Position numbers and translations under genes: made by a program. Below the pieces are notes generated by a model. It worked only from the letters and a program-made list of their open reading frames with translations. It searched no databases and was not told the DNA's origin. A stretch of DNA of 34,320 nucleotides. Source: Betaproteobacteria bacterium (GTDB lineage: Bacteria; Pseudomonadota; Gammaproteobacteria; Burkholderiales; Rhodocyclaceae). Below are positions 271 to 34,230 of the stretch, piece after piece (the first letter of the stretch is position 1; each line of letters starts with the position of its first letter). Location: NCBI GenBank assembly GCA_009780885.1, contig WQZF01000022.1:1-34320 (forward strand). The letters are read 5' to 3'.

Positions 271-350
271 GGGGTTTATCTCTTTAGCTTCCTGCCCCGC
301 CTGTGGATCATTCTGTAGGGGAGACCGTCATCGCGAGCGGTGCGAAGCAT

Positions 351-432
351 GTAGGATGGGTAGAGCGCAGCGAAACCCATCGGGGTTCCAGAGGAAGGAA
401 TGATGGGTTTCGCTTCGCTCTACCCATCCTAC
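351..432. repeat. REP-like palindromic element, family A copy 1 (29-bp arms gtaggatgggtagagcg[c/a]agcgaaaccca with a ~24-nt spacer)
   Basis: Inverted repeat read directly in the sequence. Closely similar copies occur at 14083-14170 and, degenerate, at 5858-5936. Intergenic. Confidence 0.75.
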
Positions 433-483
433 ATATCATCCGTCATCCTGCGCGAAGTCGCAGGATCCGGGAAATCGCAATGT

Positions 484-2833: not shown

Positions 2834-2912
2834 TTTTCTAAATTACTTAAATAATGATCGGCTACAGTAGTTATATCCAAGCAAGAATTCTTTATTCTAA
2901 TTTAGAAAATTG
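2834..2912. repeat. AT-rich palindromic intergenic element, family C copy 1 (ttctaaattac…ctacagtag…aatttagaaa)
   Basis: Low-GC imperfect palindrome between the convergent hicB and comF ends. Four more copies are listed below. Confidence 0.7.
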
Positions 2913-2924
2913 TTTCAAAAAAAC

Positions 2925-5829: not shown

Positions 5830-5857
5830 GGCACGAGGACGGAATGACGACCGCGCA

Positions 5858-5936
5858 GGACGGGCAGAGCGTAGCGGAATCCATGATTCCTCAATCTGGA
5901 AGCGCGATGGGTTTCGCTTCGCTCTACCCATCCTAC
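5858..5936. repeat. Family A REP-like element, degenerate copy 2 (right arm intact, left arm decayed)
   Basis: Right arm tgggtttcgcttcgctctacccatcctac is identical to copy 1. The left arm gggcagagcgtagcggaatcca is only partly conserved. Confidence 0.55.
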
Positions 5937-6005
5937 ATACTTCTTGTTATCGGCGTGATTATGGGCGGAACAGGTTCAGGTTTCGCCAGACGCCCCGGAA
6001 AGGGA

Positions 6006-6133
6006 TTTTTTGAGTCACCCCAAGCTAAAGCTTGGGGATTCCTCGACACAGTGTGGGGCGCCTTCGGCGCCTGTTAGGCTATGTCTCGCTGACCCCGCCA
6101 TGAATGGCGGGGATTGCGCTCGACAGGTGTTCA
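6006..6133 (+). repeat. Family B multi-hairpin repeat, copy 1 (~125 bp; hairpins ccccaagct-aa-agcttgggg, ggcgcc-ttc-ggcgcc, ccccgccat-gaa-tggcgggg)
   Basis: Near-identical copies at 12701-12826 and 23564-23680, plus a truncated copy at 34133-34205, all in the same orientation. This copy overlaps the 3' end of the rtcR ORF. Confidence 0.8.
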
Positions 6134-7745
6134 TCTCCTGTACCGTTTCCCAGTCCAGGCCGAAACGCAGCAGGTATTTTCGTAGGCGGTCCGCGTCGTT
6201 CGCCTGCTTTTTCCTTTGCCGCGAACGGGCGAATAATATCCTTCCTGCATCGGAGAGGCTTTTGCTCCGGTGGCAGGTTTGCAGCACGGTTTCAAGCTGG
6301 CTGCGGTCAAAAAGGTCGAGTTCCCCGGAAATTTCCTTGTCCAGCATGCTTTCCACGATTCCGGGCAGTTTGGGAGCCTCGCTCCAGGCCGCGTGCAGAC
6401 GTTCGATCTCCTCGGCGACATCCGCCTCGGTGATACGTCCGCCTGTCGCCAATGTCGCCATGCGGGTGACGCTGGAAGTGAGTTCGCGGAAATTGCCCGG
6501 CCAGAGGCTTTCCCGCGAACAGGCAAAATCGAGATAACGGCGGCGCGCTTCGACATTGAAACGCACCTGCACGCCGTAATCGCGGGCATGGCGGGCGAGT
6601 TCGTAGTCCAGGTTGGGAGGGATGTCTTCCGGGCGTTCCGCCAGCGCGGGCAAGCTGAATGTCCAGAGGTTGATACGGGCATACAAGTCCGCCCGAAAAC
6701 GGCCTTCACGAATGCGTTCGCGCAGCTCGCGGTTCGTCCCGGCAATGAGCTGGAAATTGCTCTCCACTTCGCTGTCGCCGCCGAAAGGCGGGAAACGTTT
6801 GTCTTCGATGGCCTTGAGCAGCATCGCCTGCTCATCCGTCCCGAGTTCGCCGATTTCATCGAGAAACAACACGCCGCCGTGCGCCGAACGCAGCAGCCCT
6901 GTCCGTTCATTCTGCGCGCCGGTAAAGGCTCCCTTTACATGTCCGAAAAGAGAGGACATCGCCGAGTCGCCCCGCAAGGTCGCGCAATTGACTTCGACAA
7001 AGGGGCCTTTCAGTTTTTGGCGCTCCTGCTTCAACTCGAAAATACGCCGCGCGAGAAAGGATTTGCCCGCGCCGGTCGGCCCGGTCAGCAACATGGGGGC
7101 GCGCGAACGTCCGGCCACGCGCCCGATCTGCTCGATCATGATGTTGAAAGCGGCATTTTTCGTGGCGATGCCGGATTTCAGGCGGCTGATCGCATCCGCC
7201 TGCTCACGGCGGAAACGTTGGGCGATCTGGTCGTAACGGGAAAGGTCGAGGTCGATGACATCGACAAATCCGGCAGGTCTGGCGCTCGTTCCTTCACCTT
7301 CTTCCCCGATGCGGCGCGGCATGGTCTGGATGAGACGCCCCGGAAAATAATGCGCCTCGCTCAACAGGAACCAGCAGATTTGCACCACATGGGTGCCGGT
7401 CGTGATGTGGACGAAATAGTCTTCGCGGTCGATATCGAACTCGTAATCCAGCGAAAAATCGCGCAGCCGGGTGTAGACCTCCTCGAAATCCCAGGGATCG
7501 GAAAGCGCCAGTTCATGACACCGCACCTCGGTGATGGGGGAACCCTCGGCGATATCCCCGGCAATACGTCCGGCCAGTTGCGCGTCGCGTGGGTGGTGCA
7601 GCAATTCCAGCCGATCCACGGGCAAATCCGGCTGGCTGCACAAACCGACGGTGGGACGCCAGCGGCCCATGCGCTTTTGCAGGTTGAAGCCGCCCATGGC
7701 GTCGAGCTTGTTGCCCAGAAAACCAAAGACCACTGTTTTTTTCAT
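6015..7745 (-). CDS. rtcR: Sigma-54-dependent transcriptional regulator RtcR (CARF-like N-domain, AAA+ sigma54-activation domain, C-terminal HTH)
   Basis: N-terminal region typical of RtcR (MKKTVVFGFLGNKLD…), GAFTGA and Walker motifs of the sigma54 activator domain. Divergent from an rtcB-containing operon. Start taken at ATG 7745 (MKKT…); the ORF track begins 8 codons upstream at TTG. The last ~38 codons and the stop are encoded by repeat B1. Confidence 0.85.
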   Translation of the reverse strand: MKKTVVFGFLGNKLDAMGGFNLQKRMGRWRPTVGLCSQPDLPVDRLELLHHPRDAQLAGRIAGDIAEGSPITEVRCHELALSDPWDFEEVYTRLRDFSLDYEFDIDREDYFVHITTGTHVVQICWFLLSEAHYFPGRLIQTMPRRIGEEGEGTSARPAGFVDVIDLDLSRYDQIAQRFRREQADAISRLKSGIATKNAAFNIMIEQIGRVAGRSRAPMLLTGPTGAGKSFLARRIFELKQERQKLKGPFVEVNCATLRGDSAMSSLFGHVKGAFTGAQNERTGLLRSAHGGVLFLDEIGELGTDEQAMLLKAIEDKRFPPFGGDSEVESNFQLIAGTNRELRERIREGRFRADLYARINLWTFSLPALAERPEDIPPNLDYELARHARDYGVQVRFNVEARRRYLDFACSRESLWPGNFRELTSSVTRMATLATGGRITEADVAEEIERLHAAWSEAPKLPGIVESMLDKEISGELDLFDRSQLETVLQTCHRSKSLSDAGRILFARSRQRKKQANDADRLRKYLLRFGLDWETVQEMNTCRAQSPPFMAGSARHSLTGAEGAPHCVEESPSFSLG

Positions 7746-7902
7746 GATGCTCTTACCCTTGGCGATCAATACCCATAAATTATATATATAAATACGATTT
7801 TATATAAAAAGATAATTTTGTTCGCGGGCAAAATATCCGAACGTCCTTGGTTGTTGGGCATTTCTTCATGTTTTTCAACAGGTTATCAAGTTATATCCCT
7901 GT

Positions 7903-7919
7903 CTGGCACGGGATCTGCT
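7903..7919 (+). promoter_or_regulatory. Sigma-54 (-24/-12) promoter TGGCACgggatCTGCta
   Basis: TGGCAC-N5-cTGC matches the RpoN consensus TGGCAC-N5-TTGC with one mismatch. It sits in the AT-rich divergent region between rtcR and the downstream RNA/SPFH/rtcB genes, where an RtcR-dependent promoter is expected. Confidence 0.6.
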
Positions 7920-8064
7920 ATAAGGATAGCGGACGATATTTGTCTTGAGCAGGGATAACAGGTCAGGGGTTCCATTGCCCCGCCGGTGCGCGAGAGCCGC
8001 TTGCAGCGTCGCCTTCGCGTATGCCGCCCGCTCAGGGCATCTGGGTTCCACATTTGCTTGGCAA

Positions 8065-8111
8065 GTGCAAGCAGGGTTGCTTCGTCGGGTTCGATTCCCG
8101 ATTGCACACCA
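8065..8111 (+). ncRNA. tRNA-like minihelix fragment (acceptor-like stem plus T-arm tcggg-ttcgatt-cccga, ending …cacCCA), no D or anticodon arms
   Basis: Read directly: gtgcaag…tcgggttcgattcccgattgcacacca. The T-loop is canonical. Only 13 nt separate the acceptor 5' strand from the T-arm, so this is not a complete tRNA. Confidence 0.35.
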
Positions 8112-8186
8112 TTTGGATGGCTCAGTTGGTAGAGCGGCCAGTGCATAACTGGTTTGTCGCGGGTTCGACTCCCGCTCCAAAAAGCC
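8111..8186 (+). ncRNA. tRNA-like cloverleaf RNA (D-arm gctc/agttggta/gagc; anticodon stem-loop gccag-tgCATaa-ctggt with anticodon CAU; T-arm gcggg-ttcgact-cccgc; 7-bp acceptor with an A1xA72 mismatch; no encoded CCA). Either a Y-RNA-like tRNA mimic or a degenerate tRNA-Met/Ile2
   Basis: Folded by hand from the sequence. All four arms are present with canonical loop sizes, U33 and A37. The acceptor stem is atttgga/tccaaaa and 1:72 is unpaired. It lies ~190 nt downstream of the sigma54 promoter and inside the spurious N-terminal extension of the 8154 ORF. Confidence 0.5.
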
Positions 8187-11376: not shown

Positions 11377-11405
11377 ATGCCCAGACACGCGCTGCGCGGA
11401 CGTGA

Positions 11406-11483
11406 ATTTTCTAAATTACTGTAATAATTTTTTAATAATAATCACTACAGTAGCGAAATATTCTTTAAGTAAATTTAGAAAAC
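11406..11483. repeat. Family C AT-rich palindromic element, copy 2
   Basis: ttctaaattactgtaataat…ctacagtag…ttaagtaaatttagaaaa, between convergent rtcB and the OMP gene. Confidence 0.7.
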
Positions 11484-12700: not shown

Positions 12701-12826
12701 TTTTGAGTCACCCCAACCTGAAGGTTGGGGATTCCTCGACACAGTGTGTGGCGCCTTTGGCGCCTGTCACGCTATGTCTCGCTGACCCCGCCATGAATGG
12801 CGGGGATTGCGCTCGACAGGTGTTCA
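12701..12826 (+). repeat. Family B multi-hairpin repeat, copy 2
   Basis: About 90% identical to 6006-6133. In the divergent region between the OMP gene and the SDR gene. Confidence 0.8.
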
Positions 12827-12908
12827 ACCGCTGCGCCTCTGCCTGCATATCCCCCCACCGATAGCGGCGCTTTCTTTTCGCAGGATTTTTCAACCCGCCG
12901 GATTCATC

Positions 12909-13685
12909 ATGAACCAGAGCACCGTACCCGAAACCCTCAGGAACGAAACGCCCAATATCCTCATCGTCGGCGCGGCTTCCGCGATTGCCGAGGCGACGGC
13001 TCGTCTGTGGGCGGCGCGGGGGGCGGGCCTGTTTCTGGTCGGGCGCGACGGGGAAAGGCTCGGTGAGATTGCCGCCGATTTGCGCATCCGTGGCGCGCGC
13101 CGGGTGGAGACTTTTGTGATGGACGCGACGGCTTTCGATCAGCACGAAAGGATGCAGGAGGCCGCGCTTTCCGCGCTCGGGAGTCTGGAGATTGCGTTGA
13201 TCGCGCACGGTTCGCTTTCCGACCAGAAAGCCTGTGAAAGCTCGGTGGAGGAAACCCTGCGCGAAATCCAGGTGAACGCGCTTTCGGTGATCGCGCTGGC
13301 AACCCGGCTTGCGGGGGGTTTCGAGGCGCGGGGCGGCGGGTGTCTGGCGGTGATCGGCTCGGTGGCCGGGGATCGCGGGCGCGGGAGCAATTATGTTTAT
13401 GGTTCCGCCAAGGCCTTTGTCGCGCATTTCCTTTCCGGCCTGCGCAACCGCCTCGACCGCAAGGGAGTGCATGTGCTGACGATCAAGCCCGGCTTCGTCG
13501 ATACGCCGATGACTGCGGCGCTGAAGAAGGGAATGCTCTGGGCAAAGCCCGAAGCGATCGCGCGCGGCATCGTCCGCGCGATCGAGCGGCGGCAGGACGA
13601 GGTTTATCTGCCCTCGTTCTGGCGGCTGATCATGTTCGTCGTCCGGCATATCCCGGAACGGATTTTCAAGCGGATGTCGTTGTAG
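12909..13685 (+). CDS. SDR-family short-chain dehydrogenase/reductase
   Basis: Start at MNQSTVP (internal Met of the 12807 ORF). Gly-rich NAD(P) motif ILIVGAASAIAEA and the catalytic YGSAK motif. Confidence 0.85.
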   Translation: MNQSTVPETLRNETPNILIVGAASAIAEATARLWAARGAGLFLVGRDGERLGEIAADLRIRGARRVETFVMDATAFDQHERMQEAALSALGSLEIALIAHGSLSDQKACESSVEETLREIQVNALSVIALATRLAGGFEARGGGCLAVIGSVAGDRGRGSNYVYGSAKAFVAHFLSGLRNRLDRKGVHVLTIKPGFVDTPMTAALKKGMLWAKPEAIARGIVRAIERRQDEVYLPSFWRLIMFVVRHIPERIFKRMSL

Positions 13686-13720
13686 TCGACACAGGTTCGC
13701 CACAAGCAGAATTTGCGCTA

Positions 13721-14038: not shown

Positions 14039-14082
14039 TGGACACCTCCTTCATACGTCTCGCGCGAGTTTCAGCACAAAAT

Positions 14083-14170
14083 GTAGGATGGGTAGAGCGT
14101 AAGCGAAACCCATTGCAATTTACAGGCTACCAGGAAAACGATGGGTTTCGCTACGCTCTACCCATCCTAC
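14083..14170. repeat. Family A REP-like palindromic element, copy 3
   Basis: gtaggatgggtagagcgtaagcgaaaccca…tgggtttcgctacgctctacccatcctac, between rnr and the HTH gene. Confidence 0.75.
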
Positions 14171-14214
14171 CCGCTTTGATTCCATCCGGGAATCCAAAAA
14201 AACCGGCGCCCCTG

Positions 14215-17294: not shown

Positions 17295-17468
17295 GAGGCG
17301 TTCTCCAGTATTGGCATCATCAAATCTTACTTCCTTACTTTCTGAATTTCAAGAAAGATCCGCCGTGTTTACGAGTGAAGGCCGTAGGAGGTGAGGCGGG
17401 CCGCTCTTCCGGGCGCATCCAGAGAAAGGGTTGTGTTGGCGGGGTCGTGATAGCGCAGGCATCGCTGT

Positions 17469-17877: not shown

Positions 17878-19380
17878 TTGGGTGATGACATGCAGCCAAA
17901 GCTTGGGGATGTATATTGTGTTTTTTCGAGGAGGATGCAGAAATATATTGCCTATCAGATAACAAAGTTGCTTATTGACAATGATCGAGCCATATTGCTT
18001 TTGCTTGACTGGTCTGGCGATGAATTGCCGAAAGAAAATGAAATCCATTCCATGCGGCCATTATTCATGGATTTCAACCCTCTTTTTGGAAAAAGACTGT
18101 GCATATACGATGTAAAACCGAAAGTGCCGAGGAATTATATTCTTGCAGGAAACATCCCTCCGCTGAGCGATGAGTATACCCAATTCTCCAATTTAACGTG
18201 GGAATACGATGACGATATATATCACCAGCTAAAATGGATGGAAATACCCGAGGAAAAACGAAATGCGTTTGAATCTGCCATAAAATGCGATAAAAAAATA
18301 ATGTTATCCGGACAGGAAGTTCCAGCCGCTTCCTTCAGAATTGAGGACTCCGGTCTCGACTTCAAAAGCGCGATGGAACTCGGCGCGCTGCCCTGTCTTT
18401 CAATTCTGCACTGCGAACGATGGCATGACGATTTATGTGAATATGTACGGTCAAATCCTTTTTTACGGATTCTTGATTTGCGCAATCACGGACACAAAAG
18501 CCTTGATTTCCGGGGAAGTCGCCTTGAAAGATTATCCATTCAAATGGATACGGTAGAAGAGATTTATCTCAATGATGAGATGGAAAAATTGTCCTTGACC
18601 AGAAATATCGACCACGCCTTTGTTGTCCATGCAAAGGATGGCGGAAAACGGCTTTTACTTCAGAGCGACATGTTTGTTGCAGAATGCGGGTTGCCGAATT
18701 TGGGCGGCTTGCATTGCTCCGGGTTGGGCGAGTTTGACATGTCGAAGGTTGTGGCGGCCTATCCGGAGCTTTGGGAGCTTCGGCTTTGGGGCAAGCCGGG
18801 ATATATCCGGAATTTCAGGGATGTAAGTCTGCTGAAAAACCTGGAGAAATTTTCTACCGATAATCTGTTTGGATTCACAGCCGAGGATATACCGGAACCC
18901 GATGAAATGCCGAAACTCAACTGGTTCTGGATGAGCAGTCTGCCAGAAGACGCCGCGAAGGCGGCAAGACGGCTGTATAAAAAACCCTCGGAAAACGGCC
19001 TTGATTTATGGATTGGAATGGCCAGAAAGCCTGAATGGCTCAGGGAAAACCTCGACAACCCCTTCAGGGATTGGGACGGGCAGGAGCACATTTCCACCAC
19101 AAATGCCAGGAAAGCTGCCGCGCAATACAGGAAAACGCGAAGTGAAATATTGAAACTTGTCGAGAATCATCCCGATGATCTTATGATCAAGATGGAAGGG
19201 ATCGTCAGGGATTATGCAGAAGCGTTCAATAAAATGGATAAACGGAAAAACTTTATCGAAACCGTTGAGCGCGAACAGATTTTTGAGGTATTGGATGGGT
19301 TATTGAGGTTGATCCCTGAGTCGTTTGATTTTGATAAAAATACGATGCTTGAATTGTTTGAAGGTACAAGAGATTTCTGA
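17878..19380 (+). CDS. Low-GC hypothetical 500-aa protein with a leucine-rich-repeat-like central region
   Basis: GC content and codon usage are clearly atypical for the window. LxxLxLxxN-like repeats (LRILDLRNHG…LERLSIQMD…MEKLSLTRNID…LPNLGGLHCSGL…LWELRLWGKPG…LLKNLEKFSTDNL). No catalytic domain recognised. The start may instead be at M 17890 (MQPKLG). Confidence 0.6.
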   Translation: MGDDMQPKLGDVYCVFSRRMQKYIAYQITKLLIDNDRAILLLLDWSGDELPKENEIHSMRPLFMDFNPLFGKRLCIYDVKPKVPRNYILAGNIPPLSDEYTQFSNLTWEYDDDIYHQLKWMEIPEEKRNAFESAIKCDKKIMLSGQEVPAASFRIEDSGLDFKSAMELGALPCLSILHCERWHDDLCEYVRSNPFLRILDLRNHGHKSLDFRGSRLERLSIQMDTVEEIYLNDEMEKLSLTRNIDHAFVVHAKDGGKRLLLQSDMFVAECGLPNLGGLHCSGLGEFDMSKVVAAYPELWELRLWGKPGYIRNFRDVSLLKNLEKFSTDNLFGFTAEDIPEPDEMPKLNWFWMSSLPEDAAKAARRLYKKPSENGLDLWIGMARKPEWLRENLDNPFRDWDGQEHISTTNARKAAAQYRKTRSEILKLVENHPDDLMIKMEGIVRDYAEAFNKMDKRKNFIETVEREQIFEVLDGLLRLIPESFDFDKNTMLELFEGTRDF

Positions 19381-19451: not shown

Positions 19452-21539
19452 TCACTTCTTCCGCGCGCCTCGTTGCGGTCGGGAGCTTGCGCGCCCGGGT
19501 TGTTCCGGCTGTTCCGGGCGTGTCCGATGAAAGGGTTGCGCTGCCGGGATCAGGTGTTTTTTGCTGCTGCCGATCAGGTCGGCGCGGCCCATTGCGCGTA
19601 GCGCCTCGCGCAGCAGGGGCCAGTTGGCGGGGTCGTGATAGCGCAGGAAAGCCTTGTGCAGCCTGCGCTTGCGTTCGCCGCGCGGGGTTTCGAGCTTGCT
19701 GGAGGAAAGGTCGATGCGACGCAAGGGGTTCCTGCCTGTGTGGTACATCGCGGTGGCGAGCGCCATCGGCGTCGGCAGGAAGCTTTGCACCTGGTCGGGG
19801 CGGAAGCCGTTTTTTTTGAGCCAGAGGGCGAGGTTGAGCATGTCCTCGTCGGTCGTGCCCGGATGCGCGGCGATGAAATAGGGGATCAGGTATTGTTCCT
19901 TGCCGGCGGTGCGGGAAGCCTGGTCGAACATCGTCCTGAAGCGCTCGTAGCTTTCAAGGCCGGGTTTCATCATGTGCGCGAGCGGGCCGGGTTCGGTGTG
20001 TTCGGGGGCGATCTTGAGGTAGCCGCCGACATGGTGCGTGACGAGTTCGCGCACATATTCCGGCGAGCGCGCGGCGAGGTCGTAGCGCAGGCCGGAGCCG
20101 ATCAGGATTTTCTTGATGCCCGGCAGCGCGCGGGCCTTGCGGTAGAGCTGGATCAGCGGCGCGTGTTCGGTGTCCATGCGCGGGCAGATGTCCGGGTAGA
20201 CGCAGGAAAGACGGCGGCAGACGGCTTCGATCATCGCGTCCTTGCAGCGCATCCGGTACATGTTCGCCGTCGGTCCGCCGAGGTCGGAGATGACGCCGGT
20301 AAATCCCGGCGTCTTGTCGCGGATTTCCCCGATTTCGTTGAGGATCGAGGCTTCGGAACGGCTCTGCACGATGCGCCCTTCGTGTTCGGTGATCGAGCAG
20401 AAGGTGCAGCCGCCGAAACAGCCGCGCATGATGTTGACCGAGAAGCGGATCATTTCCCAGGCCGGAATTTTCGCCGCGCCGTAGGACGGATGCGGCCGGC
20501 GCTGGTAGGGCAGGGCGTAGATGCCGTCGAGTTCCGGCGTGGAGAGCGGTTTGGGCGGCGGATTGATCCAGACTTCGCGGTTGCCGTGCGCCTGCACCAG
20601 GGCGCGGGCGTTGCCGGGATTCGATTCGAGATGCAGGATGCGCGAGGCGTGCGCGTAGAGCGCCGGGTCTTCGCGCACCGCTTCGAAGGAAGGCAGGCGC
20701 AGCGCCGTCTGGGCGCGTTGGTCCAGGTGTTTTTCGAGACGCTCCAGGCGTTTGGGGCGTTTTTCGTTCGGGCCGTGGAATTGCAGCGGTACGGCAGGAG
20801 CGGCGGGAGAGTCCGCCGTCGCGTCGAGCACAATCCATTCCGGGCCGGGCGTTTCGCCGCGCGGCAGCAGGAAGGCGGTGCCCGGAAGATCGCGGATGCT
20901 TCCAATGGCTTCGCCCGCCGCCAGGCGGTGCGCCAGCGCGACGATGGCGTGTTCGGCGTTACCGTAGATGAGCAGGTTGGCCTTGGAATCGGGCAGCACG
21001 GAACGGCGCACGGTGTCCGACCAGTAGTCGTAATGCGCGGCGCGGCGCAGGCTCGCCTCGATCGAGCCGAGCGCGATCACGGAATCCGGATACGCTTCGC
21101 GGCAGCGTTGCGCATAGACGAGCAGCGCCCGGTCGGGGCGTTTTCCGGCGATGCCGCCCGGCGTGTAGGCGTCGTCGGAACGGATCCTGCGCTCCGAGGT
21201 GTAGCGGTTGACCATCGAATCCATGTTGCCGGAAGTGACGCCATAGAAAAGATTGGGCCGCCCCAGACGCCGGAAATCTTCTGCCGAGCGCCAGTCCGGC
21301 TGGCTGATGATGCCGGTGCGAAAACCCTGCGCTTCGAGCAGCCGCCCGATCAGCGCCATGCCGAAACTCGGATGGTCGACGTAGGCGTCGCCGGTGACGA
21401 GAATGATGTCGCACGAATCCCAGCCGAGCTTTTCCATTTCCGCGCGCGACATCGGCAGGAAGGGTGCGATGCCGAAGCGCTGCGCCCAGTGTTTGCGCCA
21501 GGAGAACAGCGGCGGCTTGCCGCCGGCAGGGTTTTTCAA
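19452..21539 (-). CDS. ygiQ: YgiQ-family radical SAM protein (UPF0313)
   Basis: 695 aa. CxxxCxxC ([10 protein letters not shown]) and the conserved YgiQ N-terminus (…[23 protein letters not shown]…). Confidence 0.9.
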
Positions 21540-21555
21540 AGGGTTTTTCCAATCT

Positions 21556-21633
21556 ATTTTCTAAATTTGACTAAAGAATTCATCCAGCAGAGTCACTACA
21601 GTAGCGGAACATTATTTAAGTAATTTAGAAAAT
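21556..21633. repeat. Family C AT-rich palindromic element, copy 3
   Basis: ttctaaatttgactaaagaatt…ctacagtag…ttaagtaatttagaaaa. Confidence 0.7.
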
Positions 21634-21759
21634 TTACAGTGGCTTTCAAAAAATATCGAAGGCTTTGGAGGATCCGAAGACCGTCCGGGCATTCGCGGCG
21701 AAAGATTTCCGATCTTCAGGAAAGGGGGGATTCAGGAGGCGAGAGCCGCCTCGCGGCGA

Positions 21760-23400: not shown

Positions 23401-23563
23401 CGGAGTTATCTCGGATACGAGGAACCATGCAGGAAAAACATGCAGAAAACGCGGAACCAAACAGGTTCCAGTTTAAGGATTATCGGCGAGCAATTTTGAA
23501 CCATCAACCCATTCTTGATAGTTTTCGGGATTTTTCCTCTTTCCCGCACAGAATTTTGAGTCA

Positions 23564-23680
23564 CCCCAAGCTGAAGCTTGGGGATTCCTCGACACAATGC
23601 GGGGCGCCTTCGGCGCCTGTTAGGCCATGTCTCACTGACCCCGCCATGAATGGCGGGGATTGCGCTCGACAGGTGTTCAA
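23564..23680 (+). repeat. Family B multi-hairpin repeat, copy 3
   Basis: Near-identical to copies 1 and 2. Intergenic between the GGDEF-regulator start and the apaH end. Confidence 0.8.
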
Positions 23681-33319: not shown

Positions 33320-34057
33320 GTGGCAACAGCGAAACCGAAAGATAGCGAGAAGGACAAGAAATCCGTCGCTAAACCCGCAGTAAAGAAAGCGGCTGCCAAA
33401 CCCGCAGCAAAGGCGGCTGCACCCAAGGCTGCAGCAAAACCGGCGGCGAAGAAACCCGCTGCCAAGCCCGCAGTAAAGAAAGCCGCAGCACCCAAGGCAG
33501 CAGCGAAGCCGGCAGCAAAACCTGCGGCAAAGAAACCCGCTGCGACCAAGGCAGCAGCAGCCAAGCCGGCGGCGAAAACTGCGGCAAAGAAACCCGCTGC
33601 AACCAAGGCGGCAGCAAAACCGGCAGCGAAAAAACCCGCCGCGAAACCCGCAGTGAAGAAAGCGGCAGCACCCAAGGCAGCAGCAAAGCCTGCGGCAAAA
33701 AAACCCGCTGCAACCAAGGCCGCCGCAGCAAAACCGGCAGCGAAAAAACCCGCCGCGAAACCCGCAGTGAAGAAAGCGGCAGCGCCCAAGGCAGCAGCGA
33801 AGCCGGCAGCGAAGGCTGCGGCAAAGAAACCGGCTGCAACCAAGGCCGCTGCGGCAAAACCGGCAGCGAAAAAACCCGCCGCGAAGAAGGCCGCGCCCAA
33901 GCCAGCCGCCAAGGCTTCTGCCCCGGCGCCGGCAGGCTTTTCCGCCTCTTCCGGAATCCTGCCAGGATCGCCGTCCCTGGCGGCAACCCCGGGCGCGAAA
34001 ACAGCGCTCAATCCATCTGCCGCCTGGCCGTTCGCGACAGGTTCCCGTCCAAAATAA
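33320..34057 (+). CDS. Histone H1-like / AlgP-like nucleoid-associated protein (Lys/Ala/Pro-rich KPAAK repeats)
   Basis: GTG start with RBS aggagg. About 200 residues of [18 protein letters not shown] repeats encoded by tandem DNA repeats at 33370-33900. Confidence 0.8.
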
Positions 34058-34108: not shown

Positions 34109-34137
34109 GGACAGGATCGCTCCTGTCCCTTTTTTTT
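34109..34137 (+). terminator. Rho-independent terminator of the histone-like gene
   Basis: gggacagg-atcgct-cctgtccc followed by TTTTTTTT. Confidence 0.65.
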
Positions 34138-34205
34138 GAGTCACCCCAAGCTGAAGCTTGGGGATTCCTCGACACAGAGTGGGGCGCCTTCGGCGCCTGT
34201 TATTG
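34133..34205 (+). repeat. Family B repeat, truncated copy 4 (first ~70 bp only)
   Basis: ttttgagtcaccccaagctgaagcttgggg…ggcgccttcggcgcctgtta, then the sequence diverges from the other copies. Confidence 0.7.
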
Positions 34206-34230
34206 ATCCGGCCAGCAGAAGTATGAAGTC

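What the first reader, a model, noticed from the sequence alone, without database searches (positions are those of the whole stretch)
6006..6133. Family B multi-hairpin repeat (4 copies) that donates the C-terminal 38 codons and stop codon of rtcR
A ~125-bp element appears at 6006, 12701 and 23564, and truncated at 34133, always in the same orientation. It begins with a T-run and contains three perfect hairpins. The copy at 6006 overlaps the rtcR 3' end: the last ~38 residues of RtcR (…NTCRAQSPPFMAGSARHSLTGAEGAPHCVEESPSFSLG*) are translated from the repeat. The same peptide is produced by a spurious antisense ORF through copy 2 (12708-13703), confirming it is repeat-derived. So a mobile or miniature element has remodelled the C-terminus of a sigma54 regulator, which normally ends just after its HTH. 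The element could also encode a small structured RNA.
Basis: seen in the sequence. Interest (0 to 1): 0.6.

Follow-up and report, generated by a model that had tools for sequence, protein, structure and literature searches.

The report
Miniature IS608-like transposon in rtcR tail
The repeat is a 120-base, gene-less relative of the single-strand transposon IS608, and one copy landed in frame in the last codons of the RNA-repair regulator gene rtcR, replacing its final 12 amino acids with 38 repeat-encoded ones; it is a clear but ordinary case of selfish DNA.

Summary
The window carries three 120-nt copies (6010-6129, 12703-12822, 23556-23675) and one 67-nt half copy (34136-34202), all in one orientation. 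The last 38 codons and the stop of rtcR are read from copy 1.

Read on the minus strand, the repeat has the layout of an IS200/IS605-family end pair with no gene between, which the literature calls a PATE:
- the flanking target motif (T)TGAA;
- 17 nt ending in CAAT, then hairpin CCCCGCCA-TTCA-TGGCGGGG;
- a second small hairpin;
- GAAT, then hairpin CCCCAAGC-TTCA-GCTTGGGG, then TGAC-TCAA at the end.

GAAT and TCAA are the published right-end guide and cleavage site of IS608, and the right-end hairpin matches IS608 at 18 of 19 bases. The IS608 pairing rule applied to CAAT predicts the target TGAA, which sits at the boundary of all eight DNA copies that keep that end. There are no inverted terminal repeats and no target duplication.

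Removing exactly 120 nt restores a 549-aa RtcR ending ...VQEMKKSLSGASGET*, which resembles orthologue tails (EMEKSLPDAVG*, EAKSL*).

Related copies also sit inside a DUF488 gene and at the end of a toxin-like gene. No transposase gene was found. I rate it a new member of a known kind, of modest interest.

The parts
6010..6129 (-). Copy 1, a full 120-nt element inserted in frame in the 3' end of rtcR. Top strand: CACCTGTCGAGCGCAAT...GGGGTGACTCAA.
   Evidence: Deleting exactly these 120 nt restores an orthologue-like RtcR tail.
6130..6133 (-). Target motif TGAA (ATGAA here, TTGAA at the other copies). It lies immediately 5' of the element on the top strand and is part of the original rtcR codons ATG AA.
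   Evidence: The IS608 pairing rule applied to the left guide CAAT predicts it.
6113..6116 (-). Left-end guide tetranucleotide CAAT, immediately 5' of the left-end hairpin foot.
   Evidence: rule from PMC5934647.
6093..6112 (-).
6057..6071 (-). Central hairpin GGCGCC-GAA-GGCGCC. It corresponds in position to the second left-end hairpin described for IS608, ISDra2 and IS605.
   Evidence: PMC5934647 discussion. The correspondence is an inference.
6038..6041 (-). Right-end guide tetranucleotide GAAT, identical to the IS608 right-end guide.
6018..6037 (-). Right-end subterminal hairpin CCCCAAGC-TTTA-GCTTGGGG. The IS608 right end is CCCCTAGC-TTT-AGCTATGGGG.
   Evidence: One stem pair shows a compensatory change among copies (CG in 4, GC in 3).
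6010..6013 (-). Transposon-end cleavage motif TCAA, identical to the IS608 right cleavage site, 4 nt after the hairpin foot.
6015..7745 (-). rtcR as it now stands (576 aa from the ATG at 7745). Residues 539-576 and the stop TGA at 6015-6017 are element-encoded.
5973..6009 (-). Displaced original 3' end of rtcR: the third base of the split Lys codon (6009), then the in-frame codons KSLSGASGET and the original stop TGA (5973-5975).
   Evidence: reconstruction; comparison with L005 and L006.
12703..12822 (-). Copy 2, a full 120-nt element, intergenic, upstream of and antisense to a short-chain dehydrogenase gene.
23556..23675 (-). Copy 3, a full 120-nt element, between the Metallophos gene and the GGDEF response-regulator gene, both on the minus strand.
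34136..34202 (-). Copy 4, the right-end half only (second hairpin plus right-end hairpin plus TCAA, 67 nt). On the top strand its truncation point is preceded by TCAA.

Best explanation
Family B is a non-autonomous member of the IS200/IS605 insertion-sequence family. It is the left and right ends of an IS608-like element joined with no gene between them, the kind of element called a PATE. It most likely moves, or moved, by single-strand 'peel and paste' transposition carried out in trans by a Y1 (HUH) TnpA transposase encoded elsewhere in the genome.

The proposed steps, inferred by analogy with IS608, are these. TnpA binds the two subterminal hairpins on the top strand, which is the window's minus strand. 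The tetranucleotides just 5' of each hairpin foot (CAAT on the left, GAAT on the right) base-pair with the cleavage sites (the flanking TGAA and the terminal TCAA). The 120-nt strand is excised as a circle and inserted 3' of another (T)TGAA, preferably one followed by A, with no target duplication.

One such insertion hit ...GAG ATG AA^A AAA TCC... in rtcR. Because the element is 120 nt long and open in that frame until a TGA eight bases from its end, RtcR lost its last 12 residues (KKSLSGASGET, counting the split Lys codon) and gained 38 element-encoded residues. The lost region is unconserved in length and sequence among orthologues, so the change is probably tolerated.

Shown directly: the element's anatomy, its boundaries, the target motif, the match to IS608 sequences and to the IS608 pairing rule, and the in-frame replacement. 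Inferred: mobilisation by a TnpA, current activity, and neutrality for RtcR.
For: 1. Copies and boundaries. There are nine DNA copies with identical boundaries at unrelated sites: four in the window and five in JGI contigs L001-L004. Two decayed copies lie in L011 and L008.
2. No terminal inverted repeats and no target duplication.
3. Target motif. The 5' flank on the top strand is TGAA in all eight DNA copies that keep the left end: six intact (TTGAA in five, ATGAA in one) and two decayed (L011, L008). The first 3' flanking base is A in 9 of 9 copies that keep the right end.
4. Published IS608 values: left guide AAAG with left cleavage site TTAC, and right guide GAAT with right cleavage site TCAA (PMC5934647). 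A+16 pairs with T-3 and A+17 with T-4. Here the right guide is GAAT and the end is TCAA, identical to IS608. The pairing g1:c2, g2:c1, g4:c4, which I derived from those values, applied to the left guide CAAT predicts TGAA, as observed.
5. The IS608 right-end 19-mer GAATCCCCTAGCTTTAGCT matches copies 1, 3 and 4 on the minus strand with 1-2 mismatches, against 0 expected in 100 shuffles. The IS608 oligonucleotide sequences come from the supplement.
6. Geometry. The left cleavage site lies 17 nt 5' of the hairpin foot, against 18-19 nt in IS608. The right cleavage site lies 8 nt 3' of the foot, against 10 nt. A second hairpin follows the left-end hairpin, as described for IS608, ISDra2 and IS605.
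7. Empty site. Deleting 120 nt gives a 549-aa RtcR ending EMKKSLSGASGET*. This compares with EMEKSLPDAVG* in L006/P0007 and EAKSL* in L005/P0003. Orthologues are 527-574 aa long.
8. Other genes hit. P0121 has a toxin-like N-terminus followed by ...YHCHL|NTCRAQSP...FRLG*. P0122/P0124 is a DUF488 protein with an in-frame internal insertion.
9. Gene-less IS200/IS605 derivatives of this kind are documented (PMC10055086).
Against: - No tnpA or other transposase gene is present in the window (Pfam) or in the fetched loci (the precomputed Pfam lists, and my reading of the ORF translations of L001-L004). No full-length element with these ends was found.
- The hairpins are perfect 8-bp stems, whereas the IS608 palindromes are imperfect. 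The spacings differ by 1-2 nt.
- The left-end hairpin differs from the right-end hairpin in its four inner base pairs, while the two IS608 hairpins are nearly identical.
- GC skew of the + strand is weakly positive (+0.02, ranging from -0.02 to +0.06). Taken at face value this puts the top strand on the leading-strand template, opposite to the bias I recall for this family, but 34 kb is too little to call.
- L002 carries two copies in opposite orientations.
- The invariant A after the element is not explained by the four-base rule alone.
- The empty site is reconstructed from relatives about 84% identical in DNA, not from a same-species allele.
Confidence: 0.82

Rival explanations
1. It is a REP or REPIN-type repeat maintained by a domesticated REP-associated tyrosine transposase (RAYT) rather than by an insertion-sequence TnpA.
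For: RAYTs are relatives of IS200/IS605 TnpA that also act on hairpins (general knowledge). The same genome carries a classical REP-like family starting with GTAG, in inverted pairs (344-434, 5857-5943, 14060-14176). Another REP-like pair is nested inside one Family B copy (L002).
Against: Family B is not a single short palindrome or an inverted doublet. It has distinct left and right ends, each with its own guide and cleavage motif, and a flanking target motif, which is the insertion-sequence layout. Its right end nearly matches the IS608 right end in sequence. It lacks the GTAG head.
Confidence: 0.08
2. It is a multicopy small-RNA gene or a cis-acting RNA element, for example an mRNA stabiliser, spread by recombination, and the hairpins are selected at the RNA level.
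For: The predicted structure is strong on both strands. One compensatory stem change occurs (pair 19-26: CG in 4 copies, GC in 3), and several G-U pairs fit the + strand. Copies 1, 3 and 4 lie in or just after genes in the sense orientation of the top strand.
Against: There is no Rfam match and no promoter-like or terminator-like site. Copies lie inside ORFs, are interrupted by another repeat or are decayed. Hairpin covariation is equally expected for DNA hairpins bound by a transposase. This reading does not explain the conserved flanking TGAA or the match between guides and cleavage sites.
Confidence: 0.05
3. It is a conventional MITE derived from a DDE-transposase insertion sequence, moved by cut and paste.
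For: It is short, multicopy, mostly intergenic and has no coding capacity. The ends show a weak resemblance (TTGAGTCACC versus TTGAACACC in inverted sense).
Against: No target duplication occurs at any of the nine copies, and there are no real terminal inverted repeats. The similarity between the two ends is direct, not inverted (guide plus hairpin plus CTCGACA).
Confidence: 0.03
4. The rtcR-repeat junction is an assembly chimera created where contigs were joined across a repeat.
For: Repeats do break assemblies here. L010 and L002 end inside copies.
Against: Both flanks of copy 1 belong to rtcR, because the displaced codons KSLSGASGET* continue in frame and resemble orthologue tails. The ENA record (34,356 nt) and the JGI/IMG record (34,320 nt) encode the same RtcR with this tail.
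Confidence: 0.02

Closest known systems
IS608 of Helicobacter pylori (IS200/IS605 family, IS605 group)
   Same: The right-end guide GAAT and the terminal cleavage motif TCAA are identical. The right-end hairpin is nearly identical (CCCCAAGCTTTAGCT-TGGGG here, CCCCTAGCTTTAGCTATGGGG in IS608). The left cleavage and target motif lies outside the element, 17 nt (here) versus 18-19 nt (IS608) 5' of the left hairpin, and obeys the same guide-pairing rule. A second hairpin follows the left hairpin. There are no inverted repeats and no target duplication.
   Different: The element has no tnpA or tnpB and is 120 nt long, whereas IS608 carries both genes. The target is (T)TGAA rather than TTAC, with left guide CAAT rather than AAAG. 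The stems are perfect rather than imperfect. The right cleavage site is 8 rather than 10 nt from the foot. The left and right hairpins differ in their inner stems. The host is an uncultured betaproteobacterium.
PATEs (palindrome-associated transposable elements): gene-less IS200/IS605 derivatives reported in Haloquadratum walsbyi and Geobacillus stearothermophilus
   Same: Both are minimal elements that keep only the left and right ends, occur in many copies and are presumed to be mobilised in trans by a TnpA encoded elsewhere (PMC10055086; PMC3119063 is listed but I did not read it).
   Different: According to PMC10055086, PATEs often encode guide RNAs (omega RNAs) for TnpB. Whether this 120-nt element does so is untested. 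The lineage and sequence family are different.
Rickettsia palindromic elements (RPEs)
   Same: Both are short, hairpin-rich selfish repeats that can insert in frame into protein-coding genes and be translated as part of the protein. This comparison rests on my own knowledge (Ogata et al. 2000) and was not checked here.
   Different: The mobilisation mechanism of RPEs is, as far as I know, unresolved. No sequence similarity was looked for. Most Family B copies are intergenic, and the in-frame cases look incidental (three ORFs).
REP / REPIN elements with RAYT transposases
   Same: Both are hairpin repeats acted on by HUH Y1 enzymes and are mostly intergenic.
   Different: REPs are single palindromes of 20-40 nt with a conserved 5' tetranucleotide, often in inverted pairs. 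Family B has two different ends, a flanking target motif and a terminal cleavage motif.

Membership tests
IS200/IS605-family non-autonomous element (PATE) | Subterminal hairpins at both ends, on the same strand and in direct orientation. | tested here: met
   Two 8-bp hairpins with CCCC/GGGG feet and a TTCA loop on the minus strand, 17 nt and 8 nt from the ends.
IS200/IS605-family non-autonomous element (PATE) | No terminal inverted repeats and no target-site duplication. | tested here: met
   Flanks of nine copies compared; none shows a duplication.
IS200/IS605-family non-autonomous element (PATE) | Insertion 3' of a fixed tetra- or pentanucleotide that is not part of the element. | tested here: met
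   TGAA in 8 of 8 DNA copies that keep a left end (TTGAA in 6). The P0121 junction HL|N is also compatible with TTGAA.
IS200/IS605-family non-autonomous element (PATE) | Four bases 5' of each hairpin foot pair with the cleavage sites, by the IS608 rule. | tested here: met
   Right guide GAAT with end TCAA, identical to IS608. Left guide CAAT predicts TGAA, as observed. The rule is derived and applied. It is a sequence-level test only.
IS200/IS605-family non-autonomous element (PATE) | Sequence relationship of the ends to a characterised family member. | tested here: met
   IS608 right-end 19-mer: 1-2 mismatches in three copies, 0 matches in 100 shuffles.
IS200/IS605-family non-autonomous element (PATE) | Precise empty site, with the flank carrying the target motif joined directly to the 3' flank. 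| tested here: inconclusive
   The reconstruction gives an orthologue-like RtcR tail, and the related loci lack the element. No same-species empty allele was available.
IS200/IS605-family non-autonomous element (PATE) | A cognate Y1 TnpA, or a full-length element with the same ends, in the same genome. | not testable with these tools
   None in the window or the fetched loci.
IS200/IS605-family non-autonomous element (PATE) | Orientation bias, with the top strand on the lagging-strand template. | tested here: inconclusive
   4 of 4 window copies are co-oriented, but GC skew is weak and variable, and L002 has opposite copies.
REP / REPIN (RAYT-associated) | A single short palindrome with a conserved 5' tetranucleotide (for example GTAG), typically in inverted pairs. 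| tested here: not met
   Family B has three different hairpins, asymmetric ends and no GTAG head. Family A in the same window does fit this description.
DDE-type MITE | Terminal inverted repeats and a target-site duplication of fixed length. | tested here: not met
Described structured RNA family (Rfam) | A match to a curated covariance model. | tested here: not met
   No hit at gathering score. In the permissive search only fragments of 9-16 bits appeared, against thresholds of 45-88 bits.

The most novel reading that the evidence does not exclude
The element may be more than a passenger. In copies 1, 3 and 4 its top strand is in the sense orientation of the gene it lies in or follows, so read-through transcripts such as the rtcR mRNA would carry the three hairpins followed by flanking sequence. 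That is the layout of an IS605-type omega RNA, with a scaffold ending at TCAA and a guide taken from the flank. If a TnpB nuclease encoded elsewhere used these 120-nt elements as trans-acting guide sources, it would cut the matching empty sites (TGAA plus flank) and so retain the elements. That would be an unusually small omega-RNA scaffold, and it would tie expression of the guide in copy 1 to the damage-induced RtcR regulon. A second untested possibility is that the 38-residue tail alters RtcR function.
Probability: 0.08. Interest if true: 0.55.

Novelty: new member of a known kind. Interest (0 to 1): 0.3.

Why it matters
The result turns an unexplained multi-hairpin repeat into a defined element with exact boundaries, a target motif and a testable mechanism. 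That allows clean masking and annotation in this uncultured betaproteobacterial lineage. For example, the 38-residue RtcR tail, the spurious antisense ORF at 12708-13703 and the DUF488 'insertion' are all repeat artefacts of one kind.

It is also an independent natural example of the IS608 guide rule: a different left guide (CAAT) goes with the target that the rule predicts (TGAA). The right-end guide, hairpin and cleavage motif are almost the same in hosts as distant as Helicobacter and a betaproteobacterium.

Finally, it is a small but clear case of an IS200/IS605 derivative rewriting a protein terminus in frame. None of this changes current understanding of these transposons.

Tried and rejected
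- Two exact-pattern scans of the GTDB species-representative genomes found nothing, so the host genome and any full-length element could not be reached that way.
- The single metagenome scan gave only four short contigs.
- Plasmid, phage and viral collections gave nothing.
- Rfam gave nothing at gathering score or at permissive thresholds.
- A protein search with the six-frame peptides of the element found only two further proteins. Look-ups of P0121, P0122 and P0123 found no contig on record; only P0124 gave a locus.
- I first read the element on the + strand. There the distance from the T-run to the first hairpin (6 nt) and the bases 5' of the hairpins (GTCA, CTGA) fit no known scheme. I dropped that reading once the minus strand gave IS608 geometry.
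- I considered an IS3-type TG...CA terminus and a weak inverted repeat (TTGAGTCACC versus TTGAACACC). I rejected both because there is no target duplication and the similarity between the ends is direct.
- GC skew was too weak to fix the direction of replication.
- Covariation analysis on eight near-identical copies is only weakly informative.
- An exact-protein look-up of a gene next to copy 3, done to find an allele without the insertion, returned only the same contig and an identical Logan contig that ends inside the copy.
- One oligonucleotide in the IS608 supplement (T5c, read as TGAT where the rule predicts TGAG for guide CAAC) did not fit the pairing rule. I could not tell whether that reflects a PDF extraction error, so I did not use it.

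Full report
**Observation**

The repeat finder on the whole window returns a direct-repeat family with full copies at about 6008, 12701 and 23554 (91-92% identical over 133 nt) and a fourth, shorter copy at 34132, all in the same orientation. Alignment shows sharp boundaries: similarity starts at TTTGAG and ends at GGTGTTCA(A), and copy 4 stops after ...GGCGCCTGTTA.

The element folds into three hairpins. The fold z-scores against shuffles are -4.4 (+ strand RNA), -6.4 (- strand RNA) and -5.2 (- strand DNA).

The minus-strand ORF 6015-7769 has Pfam RtcR, Sigma54_activat and AAA_lid domains. It ends ...LDWETVQEMNTCRAQSPPFMAGSARHSLTGAEGAPHCVEESPSFSLG*. The antisense ORF 12708-13703 ends in the same peptide and has no Pfam hit, while the opposite strand encodes a short-chain dehydrogenase.

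**Is the RtcR tail repeat-derived?**

A search of the protein collection gave thousands of RtcR homologues, the closest at 82-86% identity from betaproteobacterial or Rhodocyclales-like metagenome bins. In the 60 best, conservation runs to ...NDADRLRKYLLRFGLDWE(T)VQE. It is followed by 2-25 unrelated residues, such as AKSL*, TKK* and MEKSLPDAVG*. None has the repeat peptide.

Three related rtcR loci (L005, L006/L007, L008) align with the window only as far as 6130-6136 and carry no element there.

**More copies**

Two exact-pattern scans of the GTDB representative genomes found nothing. The metagenome scan found four JGI contigs with five copies (L001, L003, L004, and L002 with one at each end). 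Every end that the contigs retain sits at the same boundary. One L002 copy is interrupted by a REP-like palindrome.

A protein search with the translated frames of the element found two further proteins:
- P0121 has a toxin-like N-terminus (my reading; not scanned against Pfam) and ends ...YHCHL|NTCRAQSPSFMAG...FRLG*.
- P0122/P0124 is a DUF488 protein with the element inserted in frame in its middle.

The DUF488 locus (L011) comes from the same ENA sample as the window contig and shows a decayed copy. A partial, diverged copy lies in the relative L008. The element is therefore dispersed, hits coding and non-coding sites, and decays, which is the behaviour of selfish DNA.

**What kind of element is it?**

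There are no inverted terminal repeats and no target duplications. The two outer hairpins and the roughly 17 nt that precede them on the minus strand are similar in direct orientation. Read on the minus strand, the element is:

flank-(T)TGAA | CACCTGTCGAGCG CAAT [CCCCGCCA TTCA TGGCGGGG] TCAGCGAGACATAGCCTAACA [GGCGCC GAA GGCGCC] CCACACTGTGTCGAG GAAT [CCCCAAGC TTYA GCTTGGGG] TGAC TCAA | A-flank.

This is the layout of IS608, the reference member of the IS200/IS605 family:
- In IS608, cleavage at the left end occurs 3' of a flanking TTAC, 19 nt 5' of the left hairpin. Cleavage at the right end occurs after a terminal TCAA, 10 nt 3' of the right hairpin. Each site is recognised by four 'guide' bases just 5' of the hairpin foot (PMC3201880).
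- PMC5934647 gives the guides as AAAG (left) and GAAT (right).
- Its supplement gives the right end as ...GAAT CCCCTAGCTTTAGCTATGGGG AGTATGTCAA| and the left end as TTAC|CAAACTAACGCCTTAAAG CCCCTAGCTTTTAGCTATGGGG ATAC AAGGCGAAACGCCTT.

The Family B right end therefore shares with IS608 the guide (GAAT), the terminal motif (TCAA) and nearly the whole hairpin. The IS608 19-mer GAATCCCCTAGCTTTAGCT matches copies 1, 3 and 4 with 1-2 mismatches, and no match occurs in 100 shuffles.

**The guide rule**

The crystal-structure text states that A+16 pairs with T-3 and A+17 pairs with T-4. Together with the two known guide/site pairs, this gives the pairing guide1:site2, guide2:site1, guide4:site4, with an unpaired A at position 3. 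This derivation is my own.

Applied to the Family B left guide CAAT, the rule predicts the target T-G-A-A. TGAA is what precedes the element in all eight DNA copies that keep a left end: TTGAA in six, ATGAA at rtcR and CTGAA in L008. The first base after the element is A in 9 of 9 copies. PMC5934647 notes that the +1 position contributes to target choice in this family.

The central hairpin sits where that paper describes a second left-end hairpin in IS608, ISDra2 and IS605.

Gene-less IS200/IS605 derivatives of this kind (PATEs), mobilised in trans, are documented (PMC10055086).

**The rtcR event**

With boundaries TGAA|CACC...CTCAA|, all three full copies are exactly 120 nt long (6010-6129, 12703-12822, 23556-23675).

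Deleting 6010-6129 gives ...GTA CAG GAG ATG AAA AAA TCC CTT TCC GGG GCG TCT GGC GAA ACC TGA. That encodes a 549-aa RtcR ending ...LDWETVQEMKKSLSGASGET*. This is within the orthologue length range, and it aligns with EMEKSLPDAVG* (L006) and EAKSL* (L005) at the protein and DNA levels.

So the element inserted inside rtcR, 3' of the TGAA formed by codons ATG-AAA. Because its length is a multiple of three and this frame stays open until the TGA in GGG-TGA-CTC-AA, the last 12 residues were replaced by 38. The continuity of rtcR sequence across the element also rules out an assembly chimera. In addition, the ENA record and the JGI/IMG record encode the same RtcR with this tail. The replaced segment is the unconserved part after the C-terminal DNA-binding region, so I infer that the change is tolerated. 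That was not tested.

**What remains open**

- No transposase gene is present in the window or in the fetched loci (and the gene tables), and the collection scans were exhausted. Mobilisation by a Y1 TnpA is therefore inferred from anatomy alone.
- There are differences from IS608: perfect rather than imperfect stems, spacings of 17 and 8 nt rather than 18-19 and 10 nt, and unlike inner stems in the two hairpins.
- The four window copies are co-oriented, but the GC skew (+0.02, variable) is too weak to relate that to replication, and L002 has two copies in opposite orientation.
- Copy 4 keeps only the right-end half. On the top strand its truncation point is preceded by TCAA, the right cleavage motif. 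That may reflect an aberrant transposase event or coincidence.
- Covariation among the eight near-identical copies is limited to one clear compensatory pair in the right-end hairpin (CG in 4, GC in 3). It cannot distinguish DNA-level from RNA-level selection.

**Rivals**

- A RAYT-driven REP is unlikely because the ends are asymmetric and there is a flanking target motif.
- A small-RNA gene is unlikely because there is no Rfam hit and no promoter or terminator, copies sit inside ORFs, and some copies are decayed.
- A DDE-type MITE is excluded because there are no inverted repeats and no duplications.

**Verdict**

This is a well-defined new member of a known kind: an IS608-like, 120-nt non-autonomous element. 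One copy made a tidy in-frame replacement of the RtcR C-terminus. Interest is modest. The most novel reading still open is that these elements serve as trans-acting guide-RNA sources for a TnpB, and I consider that improbable on present evidence.

Noticed in passing
window 8111-8183 (+); L005 2558-2631, L006 9578-9650, L008 9582-9654: A tRNA-shaped sequence lies between rtcR and the divergently transcribed Band_7 (SPFH)-RtcB operon, downstream of a sigma-54-type promoter (TGGCACgggatCTGCT, 7905-7920). It is present at the same place in all three related loci, but ARAGORN assigns different anticodons (Met CAT, Asn GTT, Met CAT, Ile AAT). That suggests a tRNA-like module of the operon leader, reminiscent of the tRNA-like domain of bacterial Y RNAs, rather than an ordinary tRNA gene.
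   Followed up: partly
window 344-434, 5857-5943, 14060-14176: A second repeat family (Family A) has the core GTAGGATGGGTAGAGCG[C/A]AGCGAAACCCATC. It is a REP-like palindrome with a GTAG head, occurs partly as inverted pairs, and has one copy directly beside Family B copy 1. It fits the REP/RAYT pattern.
   Followed up: no
window 2834-2922, 11402-11482, 21544-21637; L002 5864-5941: A third, AT-rich repeat of about 80 nt has internal inverted repeats (TTTTCTAAATTA...CACTACAGTAGCG...TAATTTAGAAAA). It is intergenic, and in L002 it lies about 20 nt from a Family B copy. Its nature is unknown; it could be a protein-binding site or another small mobile element.
   Followed up: no
L002 5997-6047: A palindromic GTAC/GTAG-type REP-like pair (GTACGGGCGGCGTAGGGGCGGGTTTGAAACCCGCCCGTACCACCCGCCCCTAC) is nested inside a Family B copy. 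It replaces CGAC of the CTCGACA motif, so repeat families in this lineage insert into one another.
   Followed up: partly
window 34203-34206 (+ strand TTGA; TCAA on the minus strand): The truncated copy 4 begins, on its top strand, immediately after a TCAA, the same tetranucleotide as the element's right cleavage motif. This may be the footprint of an aberrant transposase-mediated deletion, or it may be coincidence.
   Followed up: no
L011 10001-10483 (P0124/P0122); P0121: A DUF488 gene carries a decayed Family B copy as an in-frame internal insertion just before its conserved CHR motif. A small protein with a toxin-like N-terminus has its C-terminus replaced by the same 38-residue repeat peptide as RtcR. 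Both are probably damaged genes that were annotated as intact.
   Followed up: partly
window 33320-34057 (+): This gene encodes a histone H1-like, lysine/alanine/proline-rich protein (Pfam HC2). Its tandem 27-57-nt coding repeats dominate the repeat-finder output, and a Logan contig of the same strain ends in this repetitive gene.
   Followed up: no
window 17435-17459 and 19623-19647: An exact 25-nt direct repeat (GTTGGCGGGGTCGTGATAGCGCAGG) occurs twice, 2.2 kb apart, flanking a 437-500-aa ORF with no Pfam match (17878-19380). I did not examine it.
   Followed up: no
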